Shown one piece after another: positions 9,600-26,391 of a stretch of DNA of 44,080 bases; the first letter of the stretch is position 1; each line of letters opens with the position of its first letter. The DNA comes from a virus (taxonomy: Duplodnaviria; Heunggongvirae; Uroviricota; Caudoviricetes): positions 1 to 44,080 of the IMG/VR virus record IMGVR_UViG_2609460218_000014; one strand, given 5' to 3'. The position numbers and the translations under genes were made by a program. The notes below the pieces were generated by a model. The model was not told the DNA's origin. It did no database searches and was given only the letters and a program-made list of their open reading frames with translations.

Positions 9600-9611
9600 C
9601 ACGCTACCGCC
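9600..9611 (-). promoter_or_regulatory. ops element (RfaH recruitment site, part of JUMPstart) in the waaQ operon leader
   Basis: Plus strand reads cacgctaccgcc, the reverse complement of GGCGGTAGCGTG, in the untranslated leader upstream of waaQ. Confidence 0.75.
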
Positions 9612-9962
9612 CCAGGCTCAACAGCTACCTGAATACTGATACCGCACTGATATTGACGCGCTAGTGTATCACTTCTTTCGCGGCAATCCGACCCGAATGA
9701 TTTTTAAGCACATTGTTGATTTTCAATAAAGAAATCAATCAAATAAAATCATTAGCAACCATATTCTTTCACTGTTGCTCTGCGATTCCTTCCTGCACGT
9801 ACAGCAGAAATCAATGAATCGCATAAAAATACAAAAAAAGTATAGATGTTCAGCAAGAATTGGCGGGTAAATTGCTATTTAAGTCAAAAACGGGAAAAGT
9901 AATGGTAAAGCCACAGCTAAATACATAGAATCCCCAGCACATCCATAAGTCAGCTATTTACT

Positions 9963-18100: not shown

Positions 18101-18964
18101 ATGATCCGCAGTATGACCGCCTACGCCCGGCGTGAAATCAAGGGTGAATGGGGGAGCGCAACCTGGGAAATGCGCTCGGTAAACCAGCGTTATCTGGAAA
18201 CTTACTTTCGTCTGCCGGAGCAGTTCCGTAGCCTTGAACCTGTCGTTCGCGAGCGTATTCGTTCTCGCCTGACGCGCGGTAAAGTGGAATGTANCCTGCG
18301 CTATGAGCCAGATGTTAGCGCACAAGGTGAGCTGATCCTCAATGAAAAACTGGCTAAACAGCTGGTAACTGCCGCGAACTGGGTAAAAATGCAGAGTGAC
18401 GAAGGGGAAATCAACCCGGTTGATATTCTGCGCTGGCCGGGCGTGATGGCAGNCCAGGAGCAGGATCTCGACGCCATTGCCGCTGAAATTCTCGCGGCGC
18501 TGGATGGTACGCTGGACGACTTTATTGTCGCGCGCGAAACCGAAGGTCAGGCACTGAAAGCATTGATCGAGCAGCGTCTGGAAGGCGTCACCGCCGAAGT
18601 GGTCAAAGTCCGCGCCCATATGCCGGAAATCCTGCAATGGCAGCGTGAGCGTCTGGTCGCGAAGCTGGAAGATGCTCAGGTTCAGTTGGAAAACAACCGT
18701 CTGGAGCAGGAGTTGGTTCTGCTGGCACAACGAATTGACGTTGCCGAAGAACTGGACCGCCTGGAAGCGCATGTCAAAGAGACCTACAACATTCTGAAGA
18801 AAAAAGAAGCCGTTGGTCGTCGTCTGGACTTTATGATGCAGGAATTCAACCGCGAGTCGAACACTCTTGCGTCGAAATCTATCAATGCCGAAGTGACAAA
18901 CTCCGCCATCGAGCTGAAAGTGTTGATTGAGCAGATGCGCGAGCAGATTCAGAACATTGAGTAG
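18101..18964 (+). CDS. yicC: YicC-family stress-induced protein
   Basis: 287 aa, MIRSMTAYARREIKGEWGSATWEMRSVNQRYLE...; conserved neighbour of rph. Confidence 0.9.
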   Translation: MIRSMTAYARREIKGEWGSATWEMRSVNQRYLETYFRLPEQFRSLEPVVRERIRSRLTRGKVECXLRYEPDVSAQGELILNEKLAKQLVTAANWVKMQSDEGEINPVDILRWPGVMAXQEQDLDAIAAEILAALDGTLDDFIVARETEGQALKALIEQRLEGVTAEVVKVRAHMPEILQWQRERLVAKLEDAQVQLENNRLEQELVLLAQRIDVAEELDRLEAHVKETYNILKKKEAVGRRLDFMMQEFNRESNTLASKSINAEVTNSAIELKVLIEQMREQIQNIE

Positions 18965-19140: not shown

Positions 19141-20396
19141 ATGGGCAAGCTAACAGACATTCAGATCAAGGCCTGGATAAAGGCCGGAACAAGGTTCGAG
19201 GGTAAATCGGACGGTAACGGTTTATATTTGCGCTATCGCACTACTGACACGTCCCCATCATGGCGTTTCCGCTACCGCTTCGCTGGCAAGCCTCGTGTTA
19301 TGACAATTGGCGCGTATGGCGTTATCTCACTGGCTAAAGCCGGGAGATCACCCGAGAGCTGGCTGCTCGTGTTTCTCTGGGGTATGACGTTGCCGGTGAG
19401 AAGCAGGAGCGAAAAGCCGCATTAAAAGCCCAGTTGGAAGCCGACCAGCATGACAAAACAGTGTCCGAAGTAGCTGAAGACTATTTTAAGAAGAAAGTAC
19501 TGGGTACATGGAAACACCCCGACATCCTCCGCCGTCGTCTGGCGAAAGACATTAATCCTCGCATAGGTCAGAAAAAGGTTAAGGACGTCAAACCCCGAGA
19601 TATTGATGCCTTGCTTCAGGCCATCTTAAAACGTGGTGCGCCATCTATTGCTAATGACGTCTTGCGCTGGATACGTCGTATCTTTGACCATGCGATCAAG
19701 CTGGGGATGATTGAGGTTAACCCCGCTGCTGCCTTTGATATGAGTGACGCGGGCGGTAAGGAAACATCTCGTGAACGTTGGTTAACCAGGCAGGAACTGG
19801 TTCAATTCTTTGAAGCCATGCGAATGGCAAAAGGCTTTAGTCGTGAGAACGAGTTAACTCTAAAGCTGCTGCTGGTCACTTGCGTGAGAAAGATGGAACT
19901 GTGCGCCGCACGCTGGAGCGAGTTCGATTTAGCCAACGGCATTTGGTACTTACCGGGCGAACGCACAAAGACAGGCGACGGGATTGATATTCCACTGCCA
20001 AAACAGGCTATCGAATGGTTGGAGGAGCTGCGCCTTCTCTCTTGTAACAGCAAATGGGTATTACCTGCGCGAAAACAACAGCATCGCATGATCCCCCATA
20101 TTCAGGAAAGCACCCTACCCGTTGCGCTGGCGAAGGTTAAGCATGAGATGCCTGGTGTACCGAACTTCACTATTCACGACCTTAGGCGCACCGCACGCAC
20201 CCATCTCGAAGCGTTAGGTGTGAATCCCATTGTTGCTGAGCGTTGCCTTAATCACCGCATCAAAGGCGTCGAGGGCATCTACAACCGTCACCAATATTTA
20301 AACGAACGGCGGGAAGCGCTGGCCATGCTGGGCAACCTGATGGAAGCCTTAGAGCGTGGCGAGGAATACAACGTTCAACCATTGAGGAAAGCATGA
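19141..20396 (+). CDS. Tyrosine integrase, P4 family (arm-binding N-domain plus catalytic domain); frameshifted in this sequence
   Basis: Track ORFs 19141..19425 and 19434..20396; N-terminus KLTDIQIKAW...GNGLYLRYRTT...WRFRYRFAGK and C-terminal HDLRRTARTHL...YNRHQYLNERR are typical. One missing C in a CCC run near 19337 would restore ISLAKAREITRELAARVSLGYDVAGEKQERKAA and a single ~418-aa ORF. Confidence 0.85.
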
Positions 20397-20433
20397 TGAT
20401 TCAGTGGATAGGTTTTCAATATTGTTTTTTTGC

Positions 20434-20546
20434 CTGTCCCACGCGTCCCATCTGTCCCGTTTTGTAAAGATAAAATAAATTCAATCAGTTACGAACACTA
20501 ACATGGGACAAAACACGGGACAGGACGGGACAAATTTTTCTGTCCC
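20434..20546. repeat. Array of about 7 GGGACA/TGTCCC hexamer repeats in both orientations (putative protein-binding sites)
   Basis: Three TGTCCC-type copies at about 10-bp spacing (20434-20459), an AT-rich spacer, then three GGGACA copies at 10-12 bp spacing and an inverted pair gggacaaatttttctgtccc (20527..20546); lies between int and orf179. Confidence 0.6.
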
Positions 20547-20586
20547 GTCCTCAAATTGAATAAACAATAACCGATAAGGGCAATAA

Positions 20587-21126
20587 ATGAATGATAACAA
20601 CAGTGTCCCAACGATTACGCTTCATGACCCTAAGCCGTGGTATGAGGTAGACCCATTGGTAATAAATGCTATGGAACTGACCGGCGCATCATATGAAGAA
20701 CTTAACGCCGGGGTATCTCTGTGCGTTGACGTTTGGGACGCCGATAGTCCAAATACTTTCCTTATAAATTGCAGGATCAAATGGGTTAAATACACATATG
20801 ACCTCACAGGTTTCGCCATTGCTCGTTATTTTTGGACTAACCCTGAGAAAGACACCCTGCTAAGTGAGGTAGTTACTACTGAATATCAGCGTAGGAGAGA
20901 ATCTCTTGAGCTGGAGATAAAAAAGGAGCGGGAAAAGAACGCCGGTTACGGGAAAACAAACCCGAAAAAAGATGAGATTATTGAAGAGTTTAAATTGTGG
21001 AAAGAAAAATACCCACAAGGCAGTTGTAAACAATTTCATCAACAGCTAACACGGCAAACAAAAAGAGGGGAAAAAGTCCCTTCAGTTAGAAGCATACAAG
21101 ACTGGACGAAAATACTGCGCAATTAA
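20587..21126 (+). CDS. Hypothetical protein (179 aa), island-encoded, no family recognised
   Basis: ORF with a good SD (aaggg 8 nt upstream of ATG); acidic N-half, lysine-rich charged C-half (EIKKEREKNAGYGKTNPKKDEIIEEFKLWKEKYPQ); located between int and alpA. Confidence 0.55.
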   Translation: MNDNNSVPTITLHDPKPWYEVDPLVINAMELTGASYEELNAGVSLCVDVWDADSPNTFLINCRIKWVKYTYDLTGFAIARYFWTNPEKDTLLSEVVTTEYQRRRESLELEIKKEREKNAGYGKTNPKKDEIIEEFKLWKEKYPQGSCKQFHQQLTRQTKRGEKVPSVRSIQDWTKILRN

Positions 21127-21197
21127 AAACAACTGCGCAATTAGCTCGGTATCCTCTCAGTACGTCGCAAATAGACGCGTTCACAGAGGAATTAAAT

Positions 21198-21392
21198 ATG
21201 AAAAATGATTTTCCCTTATCTGGCTACGTTCGCCCTTCTCGGGTGAGCGAATTCCTAGATATAAGCCCGGCCACAATGTGGCGCTGGGCAGCAAAGAGTG
21301 AGTTTCCAAAAAGCCGTAAGCTGAGTTCCCGCGTAACAGTTTTTGATGCCGCAGAAATCAGACGTTGGCTGGCGGCGAAAAGTGCAGATTAA
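21198..21392 (+). CDS. alpA: AlpA-family transcriptional regulator / excisionase-like winged-helix protein
   Basis: 64 aa; VRPSRVSEFLDISPATMWRWAAKSEFPKSRKLSSRVTVFDAAEIRRWL matches the AlpA signature; SD gagga upstream. Confidence 0.85.
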   Translation: MKNDFPLSGYVRPSRVSEFLDISPATMWRWAAKSEFPKSRKLSSRVTVFDAAEIRRWLAAKSAD

Positions 21393-21407
21393 TGGAGGTG
21401 GTGAGTT

Positions 21408-21884
21408 ATGAGCTTAATCGCTGAGATTCAAACGGCAGCATCNGGTAAGTGGCCTGCCGTGTTACGTGCTTTAGGCGTCGACGTGCCTGAAAAGCAGGCG
21501 CACATCCCTTGTCCCGTATGTGGCGGCAAAGACCGGTTTCACTTTAAACACGACGATGTAGGTTCGAGTTACTGCCGGGGGTGTAATAAGTGGCGCGACG
21601 GATTACAGCTAGCTCGAGATTGTGGGGCCTCTGTTTCTCAGATCGCCAATGCCGCTGGAATAAACACAACGCGCCACGCGCCGCTAGGCAGGCGAAAGGT
21701 CAGCTTGCCACCACACACAACTGCGTTACTGGCTGGGAAGCAGAAATTAAGGGAGCAGGGTGCAGAATGGATAAAAGTGTGGCTGGACTGTCAGGAGGCA
21801 GCAATTTTATGGCACGAATATGAAAAAAACGGCAGCCCCTTTGAGGAGAGCCGCCGTCTTTATGGACTACATAGACAACTTTAA
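21408..21884 (+). CDS. Primase-type zinc-ribbon protein (Cys-X2-Cys-X17-Cys-X2-Cys), no catalytic primase domain evident
   Basis: 158 aa; CPVCGGKDRFHFKHDDVGSSYCRGC as in primase-helicase zinc-binding domains; strong SD ggaggtg; start overlaps alpA stop. Confidence 0.7.
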   Translation: MSLIAEIQTAAXGKWPAVLRALGVDVPEKQAHIPCPVCGGKDRFHFKHDDVGSSYCRGCNKWRDGLQLARDCGASVSQIANAAGINTTRHAPLGRRKVSLPPHTTALLAGKQKLREQGAEWIKVWLDCQEAAILWHEYEKNGSPFEESRRLYGLHRQL

Positions 21885-21892
21885 TTCTTTGC

Positions 21893-21916
21893 GCTTCCCG
21901 GTTGCCCCCGGGAAGC
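21893..21916 (+). other. Perfect 9-bp stem hairpin between the zinc-ribbon gene and the helicase gene
   Basis: gcttcccgg-ttgccc-ccgggaagc with no following T-run; in the 56-bp gap between the two genes. Confidence 0.4.
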
Positions 21917-21940
21917 AAAACAACAAGGGACATAATCACC

Positions 21941-23377
21941 ATGTCAGAGAATACTGTAACTCACCTACCTCTCAAGTCAACCATGAAAGAACCGGTGTCC
22001 GGTGCGCCAGCACAGGCGGCTAAGTATGATTCTATGCCGCTGGCAAAGATGCAACCCGGCGAACGCATCGCCGCGTTTGTTGCAAAGACTGGCCGTTATT
22101 CACTTCATCGGGCAAGTGATACCTTGTACCGTTTTGATGGTGCTATCTGGCGGGCAATCAGCGATTCAGCTGTGAAAAGTGATTTAGCAGACTTCTACAT
22201 GACCCGCGGCTTTCAACCCGGTGCCAGTGTCTTTGAAAGCGACGCGCGAGCGCTGAAGATATATTCATCGACCAAACAATCTCCAGAGATGGCGGAACCA
22301 AAAGCCGGGGTAATCGCCTTTGCCAACGGCGTTTACTCAATCATAGACGGTTCATTTTCCAGCCATTGTGCGGAAAACTGGTTGCGCTCACATAACGGCA
22401 TAGACTATGCAGCAGCACTCCCCGGAGAGACACTGAGCGGCAGTGCCCCACATTTTAGCAAGTGGCTAGCGCACAATGCCGGTAATGATGAAGCGAAGGC
22501 CAAGCGGATACTGGCGGCTCTGTATATGGTTCTGACTCATCGCTACGAATGGCAGCTATACGTTGAGGTAACTGGCAAAGGTGGTAGCGGTAAGAGTGTA
22601 TTTATGTCTCTGTGCAGATTGCTATCAGGGGAAGACGGCTCAAAGGCTACAACCTTACACGCGCTGCGCGACTCAATGGCTCTAGAAACATTGATTGATG
22701 CCAGGCTCATTACCATGAGTGATCAGCCCGCATATAGCGGCGATTGTGCGAATTTAAAAGCCATTACCGGCGGTGACTCCATTTTCATCAATCCCAAGTA
22801 CAAGAAGGGGTTCGATGCGAAAATTAACGCCGTTGTAGTCGTGGCTAACAACGAACCTGCTGTATTTACTGAGCATAACGGGGGCATATCCCGCCGCCGG
22901 GTACTGTTTAAGTTTGGTGAACCGGTAGAAAGACCTGACCCTGAGTTTATGGCGAAGATAAAAACTGAATTGCCGGTAATCGTGCGTCACTTGCTCAAGG
23001 AATTGGATGATACTACCGCAAAAAGTCTGCTCATCCAGCAACGAGACTCAGAGGAATCGTTTGACGCTAAAGCGGAGGCCAGTAGCATTTACTCCTTCGT
23101 TAAACACCTGGACCCACTGCCAGCGCCTACAGGTATGCGCATGGGTGGCAAGGCATCATCCTCAAACGCGGAGCGGCCCAGAGAGTTCCTTTACCATGCG
23201 TATTTGGCATTTATGCAATACAACGGGTTCCAGAATCCACTTTCGGTTCTGAAATTCAGGCAAGCTGTTATTGCGATAATGAAAGAGCGCGGGCACGAGT
23301 TCGCGGATAAAAGGGACTCCGTTGGTCTCCGCTACAACGTGGAGTTGGCCGAATCAGCCAGCGAATGGCTTCCGTAA
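21941..23377 (+). CDS. SF3 (D5/P4-type) replicative helicase / NTPase, the C-terminal domain family of phage-plasmid primases
   Basis: Track ORF 21902..23377; likely start MSENTVTHLPL; Walker A VTGKGGSGKSVF, Walker B-like LITMSD, sensor-like VVVVANNEP; directly upstream of the iteron region. Confidence 0.8.
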   Translation: MSENTVTHLPLKSTMKEPVSGAPAQAAKYDSMPLAKMQPGERIAAFVAKTGRYSLHRASDTLYRFDGAIWRAISDSAVKSDLADFYMTRGFQPGASVFESDARALKIYSSTKQSPEMAEPKAGVIAFANGVYSIIDGSFSSHCAENWLRSHNGIDYAAALPGETLSGSAPHFSKWLAHNAGNDEAKAKRILAALYMVLTHRYEWQLYVEVTGKGGSGKSVFMSLCRLLSGEDGSKATTLHALRDSMALETLIDARLITMSDQPAYSGDCANLKAITGGDSIFINPKYKKGFDAKINAVVVVANNEPAVFTEHNGGISRRRVLFKFGEPVERPDPEFMAKIKTELPVIVRHLLKELDDTTAKSLLIQQRDSEESFDAKAEASSIYSFVKHLDPLPAPTGMRMGGKASSSNAERPREFLYHAYLAFMQYNGFQNPLSVLKFRQAVIAIMKERGHEFADKRDSVGLRYNVELAESASEWLP

Positions 23378-23397
23378 CATACTTTCAACATTAAAAG

Positions 23398-23425
23398 CTG
23401 GGGCGCATGATTGCGCCCTTTTTTA
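23398..23425 (+). terminator. Intrinsic terminator after the helicase gene
   Basis: gggcgca-tgat-tgcgccc followed by tttttt. Confidence 0.7.
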
Positions 23426-23466
23426 ATTCCATCGATAGATCAGAATATTTAGNTTTTTTTATGAAA

Positions 23467-23690
23467 GTCCTACATGTCTTACACCAAATGAAATTAAATT
23501 ATATATAACAATAAATTAGATAATGTAGGACCTTAAAAATATCCTACACAGGTCCTACATAACTCCTGCACTCGAAGCCTCGTAGTGTAGGGTTTAAGGA
23601 AGCCCCTCGCCAGTCCTACACAAGTCCTGCACTTTCTAACAAATTGTTTTAAATGATTTTTTTAATGGAGAATGTAGGAGTGTAGGACAT
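23467..23690. repeat. Iteron cluster (about 8 copies of GTCCTACA / TGTAGGAC in both orientations) next to an AT-rich stretch: putative island replication origin
   Basis: Copies at about 23467, 23523, 23543, 23552, 23585, 23613, 23672, 23681; preceded by an AT-rich segment (23440-23520); no ORF of 60 aa or more on either strand between 23378 and 24087. Confidence 0.6.
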
Positions 23691-24195
23691 GAAGGACTTT
23701 CCAGGAAAAACTATATTTTGAATATTTGAGCCTAAAAAATGGACACCCTTGCGCTACGCGCCGCTAGGCAGGGAAAGTGGTTTTCATAACATGTATTTAA
23801 CAATCGCATTCCCATTCGGAACCAGCGGGCCGGAATGATCCTGATACAGGCGTTCAGCATGGAGTGAGAATCAACGTTTTTTGATGCCCTACTGACCCCA
23901 GATTAATCTTTGGTCGGTAGCGGGAAGCCTTCGTTCTGGTCAGGGTAATGTCAGGGTGATGCTTACGTTTTATGACTATTTTAGTTAGCAATAGTTAGCA
24001 ACCTACTCAAATCAAAACTTCTCAAAGTTAATTCCTAAAACGAAAAAGCCCCCACATTTCTGTAGGGGCCGTTTCGTCATTCTGCGCTTGATGGTCGGAA
24101 GGATGGCCGACAAATATATACTATCTCTTTATGTACTCACGAACCAGTACGATAGTACAATAAGCCGTCAATTCTTCAAAATGATGGTGATAGCG

Positions 24196-24588
24196 ATGAA
24201 CGAAGTAGATTCAATTCTGGCCGAGCAGAAAAGAGCCGCAGAACAACGCCGCTTGGCTAATGAGAAGAAGCGCCATCCATCCGGCCTGTACGCCGTTGGT
24301 GATGGGTGGTATGTGAAGCAAATCGAAGAGCTTCACTCCCCGCTTGGTCTTAGCAAGGTGGTTCTGGTAAGCCCTGATGATGTTTGTGTGAGATATCAGC
24401 GCCAATATGGCAAAGCACTCACCACTGACAAATTGAAGGAATGGAGCAGGGACGGGAACTTCCCTTTGCCGCGCTCTATTAATGGGGTTATCGGTTGGGA
24501 ATCGAATGTTGTGACCAATGGCCTGAATGAACTGAGCAAAGCAGCCGGTCGAGGTTATACCAGTATTACACGAGGGTTCGCACGATGA
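24196..24588 (+). CDS. Hypothetical protein (track ORF 24088..24588, 166 aa; likely start at MNEVD giving about 130 aa), first gene of cargo cassette
   Basis: Protein-like composition; SD-like ggtgat upstream of the internal ATG; stop overlaps the next ORF start (ATGA). No family recognised. Confidence 0.5.
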   Translation: MNEVDSILAEQKRAAEQRRLANEKKRHPSGLYAVGDGWYVKQIEELHSPLGLSKVVLVSPDDVCVRYQRQYGKALTTDKLKEWSRDGNFPLPRSINGVIGWESNVVTNGLNELSKAAGRGYTSITRGFAR

Positions 24589-24782
24589 GCAAAGAATCTG
24601 TAATGGCGGCATTGAGAAAGGCGCGTGAAGGCAATATCTTTGGCGGTACTGGTCAGGCCGAATTTAACAAAAATTTTTACGCTGGCCGCGTCACCAAAAC
24701 AGATGGTGTTAGTAAGACCGACAGTAACGAGCCGATGAACCAAAAGGCATTTAATGCCCGGTTCTATGCGGGGAAATCATGA
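24585..24782 (+). CDS. Hypothetical small protein (65 aa) with internal duplicated N-x-x-F-Y-A-G-[RK] motif
   Basis: ATGA overlap with the upstream ORF and SD gaggg; NKNFYAGRV and NARFYAGKS repeat within the protein. Confidence 0.5.
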   Translation: MSKESVMAALRKAREGNIFGGTGQAEFNKNFYAGRVTKTDGVSKTDSNEPMNQKAFNARFYAGKS

Positions 24783-24841
24783 CTGAGGCATATGCGCTCT
24801 GTGTGATGCTGTACTGCTACCTGATGCTTATCTGCCCGTAA
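24779..24841 (+). CDS. Possible 20-aa hydrophobic Cys-rich peptide (MTEAYALCVMLYCYLMLICP)
   Basis: Start overlaps the ORF65 stop (ATGA), SD-like gggga upstream, followed by a hairpin terminator. Too short for any compositional statistics. Confidence 0.3.
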   Translation: MTEAYALCVMLYCYLMLICP

Positions 24842-24860
24842 CCTTCCCTCACTGCCAAGC

Positions 24861-24884
24861 GCCGCCGAAAGGCGGTTTCTTTTG
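24861..24884 (+). terminator. Putative short intrinsic terminator/attenuator after the coupled ORFs
   Basis: ccgcc-gaaa-ggcgg (GNRA-type loop) followed by tttcttttg. Confidence 0.4.
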
Positions 24885-24901
24885 ACCTGATGGAGTCTGT
24901 C

Positions 24902-25183
24902 ATGCTGAATGTGAACCGCTTGCCCAACAGCACCCGCCTACAGATTGCCGCCGCTATTGCTGAAGAGGTTTACGCGCTGGATCTGGATGATGAGGCGTTA
25001 ATTCATGAGCTGCGTCGTTATGGATTCAGCCAGGCTTATGCGGAAGCAATGACTTTCAGATTTATGACGCCAGCCTTTGAAATCGCAGATCCACGGCGCG
25101 AACGTAAAACAAAAATGCCAGCGCCCACCTCTCANCCCGAATGGGTTTTTGTTGATAATGTTTTAATGAAGATCACGGCGTGA
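24902..25183 (+). CDS. Hypothetical protein (track ORF 24890..25183, 97 aa; likely start at MLNVNRL)
   Basis: SD ggag 9 nt upstream of the second ATG; contains one N; last ORF before the island's right end. No family recognised. Confidence 0.5.
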   Translation: MLNVNRLPNSTRLQIAAAIAEEVYALDLDDEALIHELRRYGFSQAYAEAMTFRFMTPAFEIADPRRERKTKMPAPTSXPEWVFVDNVLMKITA

Positions 25184-25382
25184 CTTACACAAAATTACAA
25201 TTGGTCATAAATCACACAATAAAAATTGTAATCCCTGTAAATCCATGTACCCATACGTGTACACAAGCAAAACAAGAAAAACAAAAATCATTTAAATATC
25301 AATACATATAACCCACAATTCAATATTCAGATTCAATATTGAGTAACTCGTAACACTAATTCTTACTTTTCAGCCTTCACAA

Positions 25383-25416
25383 ATGCCGCCCACTCAAACA
25401 GAGCGGCATTTTTCTT
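25383..25416 (+). terminator. Putative intrinsic terminator near the right end of the island
   Basis: atgccgc-(13-nt loop)-gcggcat followed by tttttct. Confidence 0.4.
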
Positions 25417-25523: not shown

Positions 25524-25566
25524 ACAGATTTACTTTCTTTGCAATCGATATCACATGGAGTGGGCA

Positions 25567-26391
25567 ATGAACGAACATCATCAACCTTTTGAAGAAATAC
25601 GGCATTATGGCACTGAAGGGCAAGAATTTTGGTCAGCTAGAGAATTGGCACCGTTACTGGATTATCGGGACTGGCGCAATTTTCAAAAGGTACTGGCCCG
25701 CGCGACTCAAGCGTGCGAAGCCAGCAATCAAGCTGCATCTGACCATTTCGTTGAAACCACCAAAATGGTTGTATTAGGTTCAGGGGCTCAACGAGAACTT
25801 GAAGATGTTCATCTCTCCCGCTATGCCTGTTACCTGGTAGTACAAAACGGCGACCCTGCGAAACCGGTTATTGCGGCAGGGCAAACTTATTTTGCTATCC
25901 AGACCCGACGGCAGGAGCTGGCTGACGATGAAGCTTTCAGGCAACTTCGTGAAGACGAAAAGCGTCTTTTTCTGAGAAATGAATTGAAAGAACATAACAA
26001 ACAATTGGTTGAGGCAGCGCAGCAAGCTGGGGGAGCGACAGCTATCGATTTCGCCATATTTCAGAATCATGGTTACCGGGGGCTGTATGGTGGATTAGAT
26101 CAGAAAGCTATTCATCAGCGGAAGGGGCTGAAAAAGAATCAGAAGATCCTGGATCATATGGGTTCAACAGAACTGGCGGCTAATCTCTTTCGAGCTACCC
26201 AAACAGAAGAAAAACTCAAGCGGGATGGCGTGAATTCAAAACAGCAAGCAAACACCACACACTTTGACGTGGGTCGCAAGGTGAGGCAAACCATTCAGGA
26301 ACTTGGCGGAACCATGCCTGAGGAGTTGCCGACCCCGCAGGTCAGCATCAAGCAGTTGGAAAACAGTGTAAAAATTACAGAGAAGAAATAG
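25567..26391 (+). CDS. dinD: DNA damage-inducible protein D
   Basis: Track ORF 25555..26391; MNEHHQPFEEIRHYGTEGQEFWSARELAPLLDYRDWRNF... matches DinD as recalled; LexA box upstream. Confidence 0.9.
   Translation: MNEHHQPFEEIRHYGTEGQEFWSARELAPLLDYRDWRNFQKVLARATQACEASNQAASDHFVETTKMVVLGSGAQRELEDVHLSRYACYLVVQNGDPAKPVIAAGQTYFAIQTRRQELADDEAFRQLREDEKRLFLRNELKEHNKQLVEAAQQAGGATAIDFAIFQNHGYRGLYGGLDQKAIHQRKGLKKNQKILDHMGSTELAANLFRATQTEEKLKRDGVNSKQQANTTHFDVGRKVRQTIQELGGTMPEELPTPQVSIKQLENSVKITEKK

What the first reader, a model, noticed from the sequence alone, without database searches (positions are those of the whole stretch)
21672..23772. 21-bp near-perfect direct repeat: inside the zinc-ribbon gene and in the ORF-free region
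cgccacgcgccgctaggcagg (21672..21692) recurs as cgctacgcgccgctaggcagg (23752..23772), with weaker similarity extending a few bases either side. This could mark an ancestral duplication or deletion, a shared protein-binding site, or a site for recombination that would delete the helicase and ori.
Basis: seen in the sequence. Interest (0 to 1): 0.4.

Follow-up and report, generated by a model that had tools for sequence, protein, structure and literature searches.

The report
Origin-border DNA motif copied into neighbouring gene
The 21-bp repeat is real and not chance: one copy is a conserved DNA motif at the edge of a small phage-satellite island's replication origin, and the other is an optional extra copy inside a variable stretch of the Zn-ribbon gene. 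It is an ordinary feature of a mosaic mobile element, not a deletion switch.

Summary
The repeat is real. It is 20/21 identical as reported, 21/22 at 21671-21692 vs 23751-23772, and 27 of 28 aligned columns with one indel. It is the longest one-mismatch direct repeat in the window; no shuffle reached it.

It lies in a ~6.3-kb PICI/P4-like satellite between yicC and dinD: int, alpA, a 158-aa Zn-ribbon protein, a D5/SF3 helicase, an iteron origin and three small ORFs.

Copy 2 sits at the right edge of the origin in all 17 other islands seen here with this replicon whose sequence reaches that point (E. coli, Citrobacter, Enterobacter, Kluyvera-type loci; two integration sites; four iteron types). 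Mosaic breakpoints fall just before it in some comparisons and just after it in another.

Copy 1 lies in the hypervariable linker after the Zn ribbon. It is complete only in linker allele A. Allele B keeps the 11-bp core in another reading frame. Allele C lacks it.

The near-perfect pair occurs only in this lineage. No deletion junction exists in 5,426 E. coli genomes.

The unit is bipartite (GCTAnGC, then CGCTWGGCAGG about 10 bp on). It recurs inverted upstream of late genes in relatives.

Best reading: a family-specific cis element, probably a protein-binding site with an unknown binder, plus a dispensable paralogous copy. Interest is low to moderate.

The parts
21671..21692 (+). Copy 1 (site 1A): GCGCCACGCGCCGCTAGGCAGG, inside the Zn-ribbon ORF in its hypervariable linker. 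The gapped match extends to 21698.
   Evidence: Present only in linker allele A (window, L002, L003, L007, L020, L021, L030-L032). Allele B reads CGCTTGGCAGG in another frame; allele C has nothing.
23751..23777 (+). Copy 2 (site 2): GCGCTACGCGCCGCTAGGCAGGGAAAG, the bipartite motif at the right border of the iteron origin.
   Evidence: Present after the origin in all 17 other Zn-ribbon/D5 loci whose sequence reaches that point. Absent from the toprim/DUF927 islands at the same att site.
24852..24861 (-). Possible third, inverted core copy (CGCTTGGCAG on the minus strand). It abuts a plus-strand intrinsic terminator (24861-24876 plus T-run) between two late ORFs.
   Evidence: Present in nearly all island types. 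Weak on its own in this window (my estimate p about 0.1-0.2); an exact 11-mer in L032.
21408..21884 (+). Zn-ribbon protein gene (158 aa; PF08273 at residues 32-65). It corresponds to residues 4-73 of P4-alpha-type primase-helicases followed by a variable linker. No catalytic primase domain.
21941..23377 (+). D5_N/DUF5906/Pox_D5 SF3 helicase (478 aa). It aligns to residues 360-801 of the alpha-type protein P0033. Its C-terminal part is exchanged together with the iterons.
23400..23429 (+). Intrinsic terminator ending the alpA / Zn-ribbon / helicase operon.
23467..23697 (.). Replication origin: 10 GTCCTACA-type iterons in both orientations flanking AT-rich DNA.
   Evidence: Iteron type varies among relatives: GTCCTACA; GTCCGTCA-rich; a GTCCATCA/GTCCGTCA mix; CTACTACAC.
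23778..23879 (.). Rest of the conserved non-coding block that follows copy 2 in most Zn-ribbon/D5 islands. It is replaced or strongly diverged in Enterobacter L032.
   Evidence: No Rfam match and no unusual RNA folding.
19141..25400 (+). The host element: a ~6.3-kb PICI/P4-like satellite island between yicC (18101-18964) and dinD (25555-26391). It carries int, an unknown ORF, alpA, the replicon above and three small conserved ORFs (24088-24588, 24585-24782, 24890-25183). The right end is approximate.

Best explanation
The repeat is two paralogous copies of a short, family-specific bipartite cis element. The element has two GCTAnGC-like half-sites about one helical turn apart, the second extended to CGCTWGGCAGG and followed by a purine run.

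Copy 2 is the constant member. It forms the right-hand border of the iteron origin of the Zn-ribbon + D5-helicase replicon and travels with that replicon. It most likely works as a binding site for a protein that binds tandem half-sites. That protein is not AlpA and not the iteron-reading part of the helicase. It could be the Zn-ribbon protein, the conserved N-terminal part of the helicase, or a helper- or host-encoded factor. The site would act as an accessory part of the origin and/or a control site for the genes to its right.

Copy 1 is an extra copy that landed in the hypervariable linker that took the place of the lost toprim primase domain. It probably arose by a single ectopic duplication or recombination event with a v1-type copy 2 as the source. 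The island does not need it.

Shown: the homology, the distribution, the position at mosaic junctions, the lack of deletion products. Inferred: protein binding, the identity of the binder, the one-off copying event.
For: Not chance.

Copy 2 is universal after the origin in all 17 other Zn-ribbon/D5 loci that reach that point. They span four iteron types, three AlpA alleles, two integrases/att sites and at least four source labels (E. coli, Citrobacter freundii, Enterobacter hormaechei, Kluyvera-type protein loci).

It is the shared piece between mosaic junctions. Identity between E. coli origin types starts exactly at the motif. Between L006 and Enterobacter L032, identity ends exactly after it.

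The bipartite pattern gives 18 hits in 261 kb of loci against 0.45 in shuffles. These include inverted full copies upstream of TM2 and DUF5681 genes in L032, and upstream of DUF5681 in a toprim island (L013).

Alleles A and B of the Zn-ribbon linker share CGCTWGGCAGG.G.AAGG although they read it in different frames (PLGRRK vs AWQGEG), in a segment otherwise saturated with substitutions.

Copy 1 is dispensable and static. It is absent from allele C and partial in B. It is identical in every allele A island whatever the resident copy-2 variant.

Copy 1 lies just beyond the end of Zn-ribbon homology, where the toprim domain is missing.
Against: Diversity is shallow. Most islands are 95-99% identical in the block around copy 2, so conservation there is weak evidence of selection. 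The argument leans heavily on one diverged island (L032).

No binder is identified, and no promoter is predicted next to copy 2.

Spacing between the motif and the nearest -10-like hexamers differs between the L032 copies (my reading).

The third copy in the window is not significant on its own.

Retention of the core in alleles A and B could reflect homology through compensated frameshifts rather than selection.
Confidence: 0.55

Rival explanations
1. Pure evolutionary scar. A ~28-40-bp patch was duplicated once during the rearrangements that split the alpha-type primase-helicase and removed its toprim domain. Neither copy has a sequence-specific function, and conservation only reflects the youth of these islands.
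For: Islands are very similar overall. Copy 1 lies in filler sequence after the homology breakpoint. These islands carry several other short exact repeats. The pair is not co-conserved.
Against: In L032 the flanks of copy 2 diverge to about 55-60% with many indels, while the motif keeps 20 of 23 positions matching copy 1 and, by my count, about 27 of 29 matching the v1 copy 2. Junctions fall on both sides of it. Full inverted copies lie upstream of late genes. The core is kept in two linker alleles in different frames.
Confidence: 0.2
2. Both copies are working sites for the same factor in allele A islands. For example, two accessory replication sites bracketing the helicase gene and origin, as P4's ori and crr bracket the alpha operon, or two operator sites.
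For: Same orientation, 2,080 bp apart, bracketing helicase + origin. P4 has two cis replication regions flanking alpha. The core is retained in alleles A and B in different frames.
Against: Allele C islands have no copy 1 and allele B has only half of it, yet they keep the same replicon. Copy 1 does not co-vary with copy-2 variants v1, v2 and v3. Iterons occur only at the origin. P4 lacks the motif.
Confidence: 0.12
3. Packaging signal. The motif is a cos- or pac-like site for a helper phage terminase. Two copies would parallel the E. coli PICI EcCICFT073, which has two functional cos sites.
For: The core CGCTAGGCAGGGAAAGTGG matches the P2/P4 cohesive end GGCGAGGCGGGGAAAGCAC at 13 of 19 positions, with a GC-rich dyad just upstream in both (my alignment). 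EcCICFT073 carries two working cos sites (PMC6092414). The island has no terminase gene.
Against: No match to P2 cos within 3 mismatches. No phage record or other E. coli genome carries the motif at a detectable length. Toprim/DUF927 islands share the late genes but lack the full after-origin element and any within-one-mismatch match to the 11-mer core; a 10-mer core copy at site 3 and one upstream-of-DUF5681 copy in L013 remain. L032 has four full copies plus an exact core copy, in both orientations, which would fragment the DNA if each were cut. The 13/19 match was noticed after the fact.
Confidence: 0.08
4. Recombination substrate. Direct repeats that allow RecA- or phage-recombinase-mediated deletion of the helicase and origin. 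Or plain chance similarity.
For: 22-28 bp of direct homology is within reach of phage single-strand-annealing recombinases (general knowledge). The orientation is direct.
Against: No deletion junction in 5,426 complete E. coli genomes or in metagenome contigs. The product would be a non-replicating island. The full pair exists only in this lineage (window and L021, 99.87% identical). Chance is excluded.
Confidence: 0.04

Closest known systems
Accessory (often G+C-rich) elements next to the iterons and AT-rich region of iteron-type origins, e.g. the G+C-rich segment of RK2 oriV (from general knowledge, not tested here)
   Same: A short GC-rich conserved element directly beside the iteron / AT-rich origin. 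It travels with the replicon and does not co-vary with the iterons.
   Different: No sequence relationship. Here the element is bipartite with direct half-sites, has extra copies elsewhere in the element family, and no function has been tested.
P4 satellite replicon: alpha primase-helicase with two cis regions, ori and crr
   Same: The helicase is homologous to the alpha family (about 40% identity to a ZnR-toprim-D5 protein). An iteron region lies directly after the helicase terminator, where P4 has crr. Two related cis sequences bracket the helicase gene.
   Different: In P4 both regions carry the same Rep-binding iterons. Here iterons are only at the origin, and the repeated unit is a different motif that P4 lacks. 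The alpha gene is split and has lost the toprim domain.
E. coli PICIs such as EcCICFT073 (Fillol-Salom et al. 2018, PMC6092414)
   Same: The order int - alpA - replication protein - iteron origin with two iteron sets around AT-rich DNA. That paper also gives a precedent for a short sequence (cosN) present twice in one island.
   Different: This island is much smaller (~6.3 kb). It has no recognisable lambda-type cosN and no identified packaging or interference genes. The repeated motif is not a known cos.
Short conserved boundary sequences at module junctions of mosaic phages (modular-exchange idea; general knowledge)
   Same: Copy 2 lies exactly where homology starts or stops in several independent module swaps.
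   Different: Those sequences are usually seen between genomes, not as a direct repeat within one. Whether the motif promotes exchange, or is merely the conserved island at which exchange becomes visible, is unknown.

Membership tests
PICI / P4-like phage satellite (context of the repeat) | Tyrosine integrase at one end, inserted at a fixed chromosomal site | tested here: met
   Phage_integrase domains. The same yicC-dinD site is used in nine E. coli genomes. The window copy carries a 1-nt deletion.
PICI / P4-like phage satellite (context of the repeat) | AlpA-type regulator followed by a replication protein and an adjacent iteron origin | tested here: met
   PF05930 AlpA, PF08273 Zn ribbon and a D5_N/DUF5906/Pox_D5 helicase. 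Ten iterons at 23467-23697.
PICI / P4-like phage satellite (context of the repeat) | Primase catalytic domain (toprim or AEP) in the replication module | tested here: not met
   The Zn-ribbon protein aligns only to residues 4-73, and the helicase to residues 360-801, of a ZnR-toprim-D5 protein. No toprim hit in Pfam.
PICI / P4-like phage satellite (context of the repeat) | Helper-dependent induction and packaging; packaging or interference genes, or a helper cos/pac site | not testable with these tools
   The three right-end ORFs have no Pfam or PHROG family. No lambda cosN in the island. No helper identified.
cos site of P2/P4 type | 19-nt cohesive-end sequence GGCGAGGCGGGGAAAGCAC or a close variant | tested here: not met
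   No match within 3 mismatches in the window. The best alignment to copy 2 is 13/19 (my count).
cos site of P2/P4 type | The same sequence present in a helper phage | tested here: not met
   No phage record matches. Only the nine island-bearing E. coli genomes carry it. The detection limit is about 18-20 identical bases.
Iterons (Rep-binding repeats of the origin) | Multiple clustered copies that co-vary with the origin-binding part of the Rep/helicase | tested here: not met
   The motif is unchanged across four iteron types and their matching helicase C-termini.
Direct repeats bounding an excisable or deletable segment | Natural variants in which the intervening segment is missing and one repeat copy remains | tested here: not met
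   A synthetic deletion junction finds no full-length match in 5,426 E. coli genomes. Metagenome contigs keep the about 2.08-2.10-kb spacing.
AlpA operator | The site co-occurs or co-varies with the AlpA allele | tested here: not met
   Three AlpA alleles (20-50% identity) sit beside an identical copy 2. The same AlpA allele occurs in toprim islands that lack it.
Intrinsic terminator | GC-rich stem of at least 5 bp followed by a T-run | tested here: not met
   Copy 2 is not called. Its dyad is only 4-5 bp; copy 1 has a similar 4-bp dyad but its region was not scanned. Only the terminator beside the third core copy is called (24861-24876).
Known structured RNA (Rfam) | A covariance-model match, or unusually stable folding | tested here: not met
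   No gathering-level hit in the island. Only weak chance hits at E >= 0.097. Folding z-scores are -0.70 and +1.34.

The most novel reading that the evidence does not exclude
The 22-bp unit is the recognition site of an as yet unidentified DNA-binding factor that ties together origin function and late-gene expression in an undescribed family of minimal (~6-10 kb) enterobacterial satellites. Their P4-alpha-type replicon has been split and has lost its primase domain. The in-gene copies (alleles A and B, read in different frames) would then be working sites kept by selection at the DNA level inside a coding linker.
Probability: 0.2. Interest if true: 0.45.

Novelty: new member of a known kind. 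Interest (0 to 1): 0.3.

Why it matters
In itself this matters little. It is a short repeated cis motif in a rare mosaic satellite island, found in 9 of 5,426 complete E. coli genomes.

It is still useful in three ways. It marks the right border of the origin module of this replicon, which helps define exchangeable modules. It gives a concrete 22-27-bp target for finding the factor that acts at this origin. It also shows that this island family runs on a Zn-ribbon protein plus SF3 helicase with no recognisable primase domain, which raises the question of how replication is primed.

It does not indicate a programmed deletion or a phase switch.

Tried and rejected
- Chance: rejected by shuffles.
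- Deletion variants: a synthetic junction found none in E. coli genomes. Metagenome hits keep the normal spacing.
- Known RNA families or structured RNA: none.
- Sigma-70 promoter next to copy 2: none predicted. My hand-read -10 candidates were weak and not conserved between origin types.
- Lambda cosN and P2 cos: no convincing match.
- DNA relatives of the conserved block or of the replicon in phage and plasmid collections: none.
- Wider occurrence of the motif. Scans of genome representatives and IMG/VR gave only chance-level hits in unrelated high-GC contigs. The protein-seeded genome scan found no relatives.
- AlpA as the binder: rejected because the alleles do not correlate with the motif.
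- Iteron-like role: rejected.
- Integrase arm-type site: considered because of the tandem half-sites (compare the P4 attP arm repeats). Rejected because the copies lie 1.5-2.5 kb from the island ends and are shared by islands with two different integrases.
- dif/cer-like Xer site, Tus-Ter site, sigma-54 promoter and nut/boxA: read by eye in the flanks and dropped because key positions do not match or are not conserved in L032.
- The 4-bp dyad with an apparent compensatory swap (GCGC..GCGC vs CGGC..GCCG): noted but not relied on, because the inverted copies in L032 and L013 lack it.
- Small ORFs across copy 2 (a 46-aa minus-strand ORF and a 15-aa plus-strand ORF): no ribosome-binding site and not conserved between variants.
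Full report
**Observation.**
One more G matches on the left, giving 21/22 at 21671-21692 vs 23751-23772 (family D12). With a single-base indel the match runs on through GAAAG, 27 identical of 28 aligned columns. This is the longest direct repeat with at most one mismatch in the 44-kb window. None of 60 first-order Markov randomisations of the window (largest 20) and none of 500 of the island (largest 19) reached 22 nt. The gapped local score is 44, against a maximum of 26 in 300 shuffles. Chance can be set aside.

**Context.**
The repeat lies in a small island between yicC (18101-18964) and dinD (25555-26391) of an E. coli-type chromosome. The island carries these parts:
- a tyrosine integrase
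- an ORF of unknown function
- alpA (21198-21392)
- a 158-aa protein with only a primase-helicase zinc-binding domain (21408-21884)
- a D5_N/DUF5906/Pox_D5 SF3 helicase (21941-23377)
- a terminator (23400-23419)
- an origin with ten GTCCTACA-type iterons around AT-rich DNA (23467-23697)
- about 330 bp of conserved non-coding DNA
- three small ORFs without known families

This is the layout of Gram-negative PICIs and of P4-like satellites (PMC6092414; P4 annotation), but unusually small (~6.3 kb). Against a full-length ZnR-toprim-D5 protein (P0033), the Zn-ribbon protein covers residues 4-73 and the helicase covers residues 360-801. The alpha-type gene is therefore split and its toprim primase domain is gone. 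Calling the gene a 'zinc-ribbon primase' overstates it.

**Relatives.**
Nine of 5,426 complete E. coli genomes carry this replicon at the same site. I read eight of them (L001-L008). I also read four metagenome contigs of this replicon (L020, L021, L023 and L027). I read further islands with the same replicon but a different integrase and att site, next to dusB/fis: Citrobacter freundii (L030, L031), Enterobacter hormaechei (L032) and loci carrying a protein named from Kluyvera ascorbata (L033-L035). One more yicC island (L036) came. Other islands at yicC-dinD carry a toprim + DUF927 replicon and share only the DNA from 23880 rightwards (L009-L011, L013 and L014); L012, by contrast, lies inside a prophage at a different locus and shares only the DNA from about 24027 rightwards.

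**Copy 2.**
In all 17 other Zn-ribbon/D5 loci whose sequence reaches that point, the motif sits about 50-60 bp to the right of the last iteron. Three close variants occur, plus a more diverged one in L032:
- v1: GCGCTACGCGC-CGCTAGGCAGG
- v2: CGGCTACGCCGT-CGCTAGGCAGG
- v3: CGGCTACGCCG-CGCTAGGCAGG
- L032: GCGCTTCGCGC[TTCGCGC]-CGCTAAGCAGG

The E. coli islands have four iteron types, exchanged together with the C-terminal part or the whole of the helicase. In each comparison the sequences become near-identical exactly at the motif. The converse holds for L032 against L006. They share the same origin type and stay identical up to and through the motif (apart from a 7-bp tandem duplication). Right after ...GCAGGG they fall to roughly 55-60% identity with many indels.

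The motif is therefore the common piece between junctions on either side. That is expected of a constrained cis element, and it is the best evidence that copy 2 is more than a passenger. It does not correlate with AlpA: three alleles at 20-50% identity sit beside an identical copy 2, and one of those alleles also occurs in toprim islands that lack the after-origin element. It does not correlate with iteron type or with the integrase. It correlates only with the Zn-ribbon/D5 replicon. The full bipartite element occurs only once in the six toprim loci, upstream of DUF5681 in L013. The 10-mer core also lies beside the late-gene terminator in five of them. None has a match to the 11-mer core within one mismatch.

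**Copy 1.**
The Zn-ribbon gene has a conserved N-terminus and a mosaic middle. Three linker alleles exist:
- A: ...INTTRHAPLGRRKVS...
- B: ...KKKNAWQGEGLE...
- C: ...ELKRQQHRNAAR..., in a 178-aa protein

Copy 1 is the allele A linker, codons 88-95, about 15 codons past the end of homology to alpha-type proteins. Allele B keeps CGCTTGGCAGGGGGAAGG at the homologous place but reads it in another frame: GCT TGG CAG GGG, against CCG CTA GGC AGG in A. This is a segment where even synonymous sites have diverged. Allele C has no trace of the motif.

Linker allele and copy-2 variant assort independently:
- A + v1: only the window and L021, which is 99.87% identical to the window and so the same lineage
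- A + v2: L002 and L003
- A + v3: L007 and L030
- A + the L032 variant
- B + v1, B + v2 and B + v3
- C + v1, C + v2 and C + v3

Copy 1 is letter-for-letter the same in all allele A islands whatever copy 2 looks like. There is thus no ongoing conversion between the copies and no co-variation. The near-perfect pair is not a conserved feature of the family.

**A wider motif family.**
Read as two half-sites, the unit is GCTA(A)CGC - N2-5 - CGCTWRGMAGG. That is two GCTAnGC-like words 10-11 bp apart start to start (13 bp in the copies upstream of DUF5681). This pattern gives 18 hits in 261 kb of fetched loci, against 0.45 in shuffles.

Besides sites 1A and 2, it finds inverted full copies in L032: 173 bp upstream of a TM2-domain gene and 58 bp upstream of a DUF5681 gene. 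It also finds the homologous copy upstream of DUF5681 in a toprim island, L013.

The 10-mer core CGCTTGGCAG also occurs once more in the window, on the minus strand at 24861-24852. There it abuts a plus-strand intrinsic terminator between two late ORFs, and it is found there in almost all island types. By itself that hit is not significant; I estimate p of about 0.1-0.2. In L032 the same place carries the exact 11-mer.

A dispersed, orientation-independent, bipartite word with direct half-sites one helical turn apart is what a binding site for a tandemly binding protein looks like. That is an inference; nothing here shows binding.

**What it is not.**
- No deletion junction exists.
- There is no Rfam family and no unusual RNA folding.
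- No sigma-70 promoter is predicted.
- Neither copy qualifies as a terminator: the scan did not call copy 2, and the dyads beside copies 1 and 2 are only 4-5 bp.
- There is no lambda cosN in the island.
- The P2/P4 cohesive end resembles the core (13 of 19 positions, with a GC dyad just upstream in both). But it fails a 3-mismatch search. No phage or other E. coli genome has the sequence. Toprim islands that share the late genes lack the after-origin copy. L032 has four full copies plus an exact core copy, in both orientations. I keep packaging as a minor rival only because EcCICFT073 shows that a PICI can carry two working cos sites.
- P4 itself lacks the motif, and its ori/crr pair is made of iterons. 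Here iterons occur only at the origin.

**Verdict.**
The most likely account is this. Copy 2 is a constrained accessory element at the border of the origin of this replicon, probably a protein-binding site with an unknown binder. Copy 1 is a dispensable paralogue, fixed once in one allele of a fast-evolving linker, and possibly dating from the rearrangement that removed the primase domain. My confidence in that account is about 0.55.

The rivals are:
- a functionless scar (0.2)
- two working sites in allele A islands (0.12)
- a packaging signal (0.08)
- a deletion substrate, or chance (0.04)

The feature is a new example of a familiar kind of thing, of modest interest. The surrounding toprim-less split replicon and the rampant module exchange at this att site are arguably more interesting than the repeat itself.

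Noticed in passing
window 21408-23377: The replication module looks like a P4-alpha-type primase-helicase that has been split in two and has lost its toprim primase domain. The Zn-ribbon protein matches residues 4-73 and the helicase matches residues 360-801 of an 813-aa ZnR-toprim-D5 protein. How this replicon is primed is unclear.
   Followed up: partly
window 23000-23750, and L001-L008, L036: The iteron type (GTCCTACA; GTCCGTCA-rich; a GTCCATCA/GTCCGTCA mix; CTACTACAC) is swapped together with the C-terminal part, or the whole, of the helicase. This is a tidy example of origin-specificity modules being exchanged among otherwise near-identical islands.
   Followed up: partly
window 19141-20396: The integrase is split into two ORFs (19141-19425 and 19434-20396) by a 1-nt deletion near 19339, relative to the intact 1257-nt gene in relatives. 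This is either a real frameshift (an immobilised island) or a sequencing error. The window also has 25 scattered single N positions, including 21443 and 23453.
   Followed up: partly
window 21335-21350 and 23873-23888: A 16-mer, AACRKTTTTTGATGCC (14/16 identical between the copies), sits at both edges of the exchangeable Zn-ribbon/D5 cassette. The left edge is where islands with another alpA allele become homologous (about 21351-21366). The right edge is where toprim/DUF927 islands become homologous (about 23880). The match itself is at chance level, but its position is suggestive.
   Followed up: no
window 24047-24070 (minus strand) and 24088-24612: A strong minus-strand intrinsic terminator (GNRA loop, T-run) lies just upstream of the first late ORF. 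That ORF (24088-24588, plus strand) overlaps almost completely a 133-aa minus-strand ORF (24211-24612). Which strand is really coding was not resolved.
   Followed up: no
L009-L014 (E. coli): L009-L011, L013 and L014 at the yicC-dinD site; L012 inside a prophage at another locus: The same att site hosts a second island type with a toprim + DUF927 replicon. It shares the three right-end ORFs and the non-coding DNA from 23880 onwards. Some of these islands carry extra TM2 and DUF5681 genes. One relative of the late module (L012) lies inside a prophage next to tail genes.
   Followed up: partly
L032 4788-4802 and 7454-7468; 7477-7491 and 8494-8508: The Enterobacter island has further exact 15-nt repeats. 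AACATAGGGTGATAA occurs just upstream of alpA and again beside an inverted motif copy. CCTGCCAAGCGGGAG occurs upstream of two late genes that have good -10 hexamers but no -35. These may be activator-dependent late promoters.
   Followed up: partly
window 9600-9638 (minus strand): A JUMPstart RNA element (Rfam RF01707, 55 bits) lies in the low-GC LPS-core (waa) region on the left of the window. It is unrelated to the island.
   Followed up: no
L032 7340-7372: Copy 2 in the Enterobacter island carries a 7-bp tandem duplication (TTCGCGC TTCGCGC) within its left half-site region.
   Followed up: no
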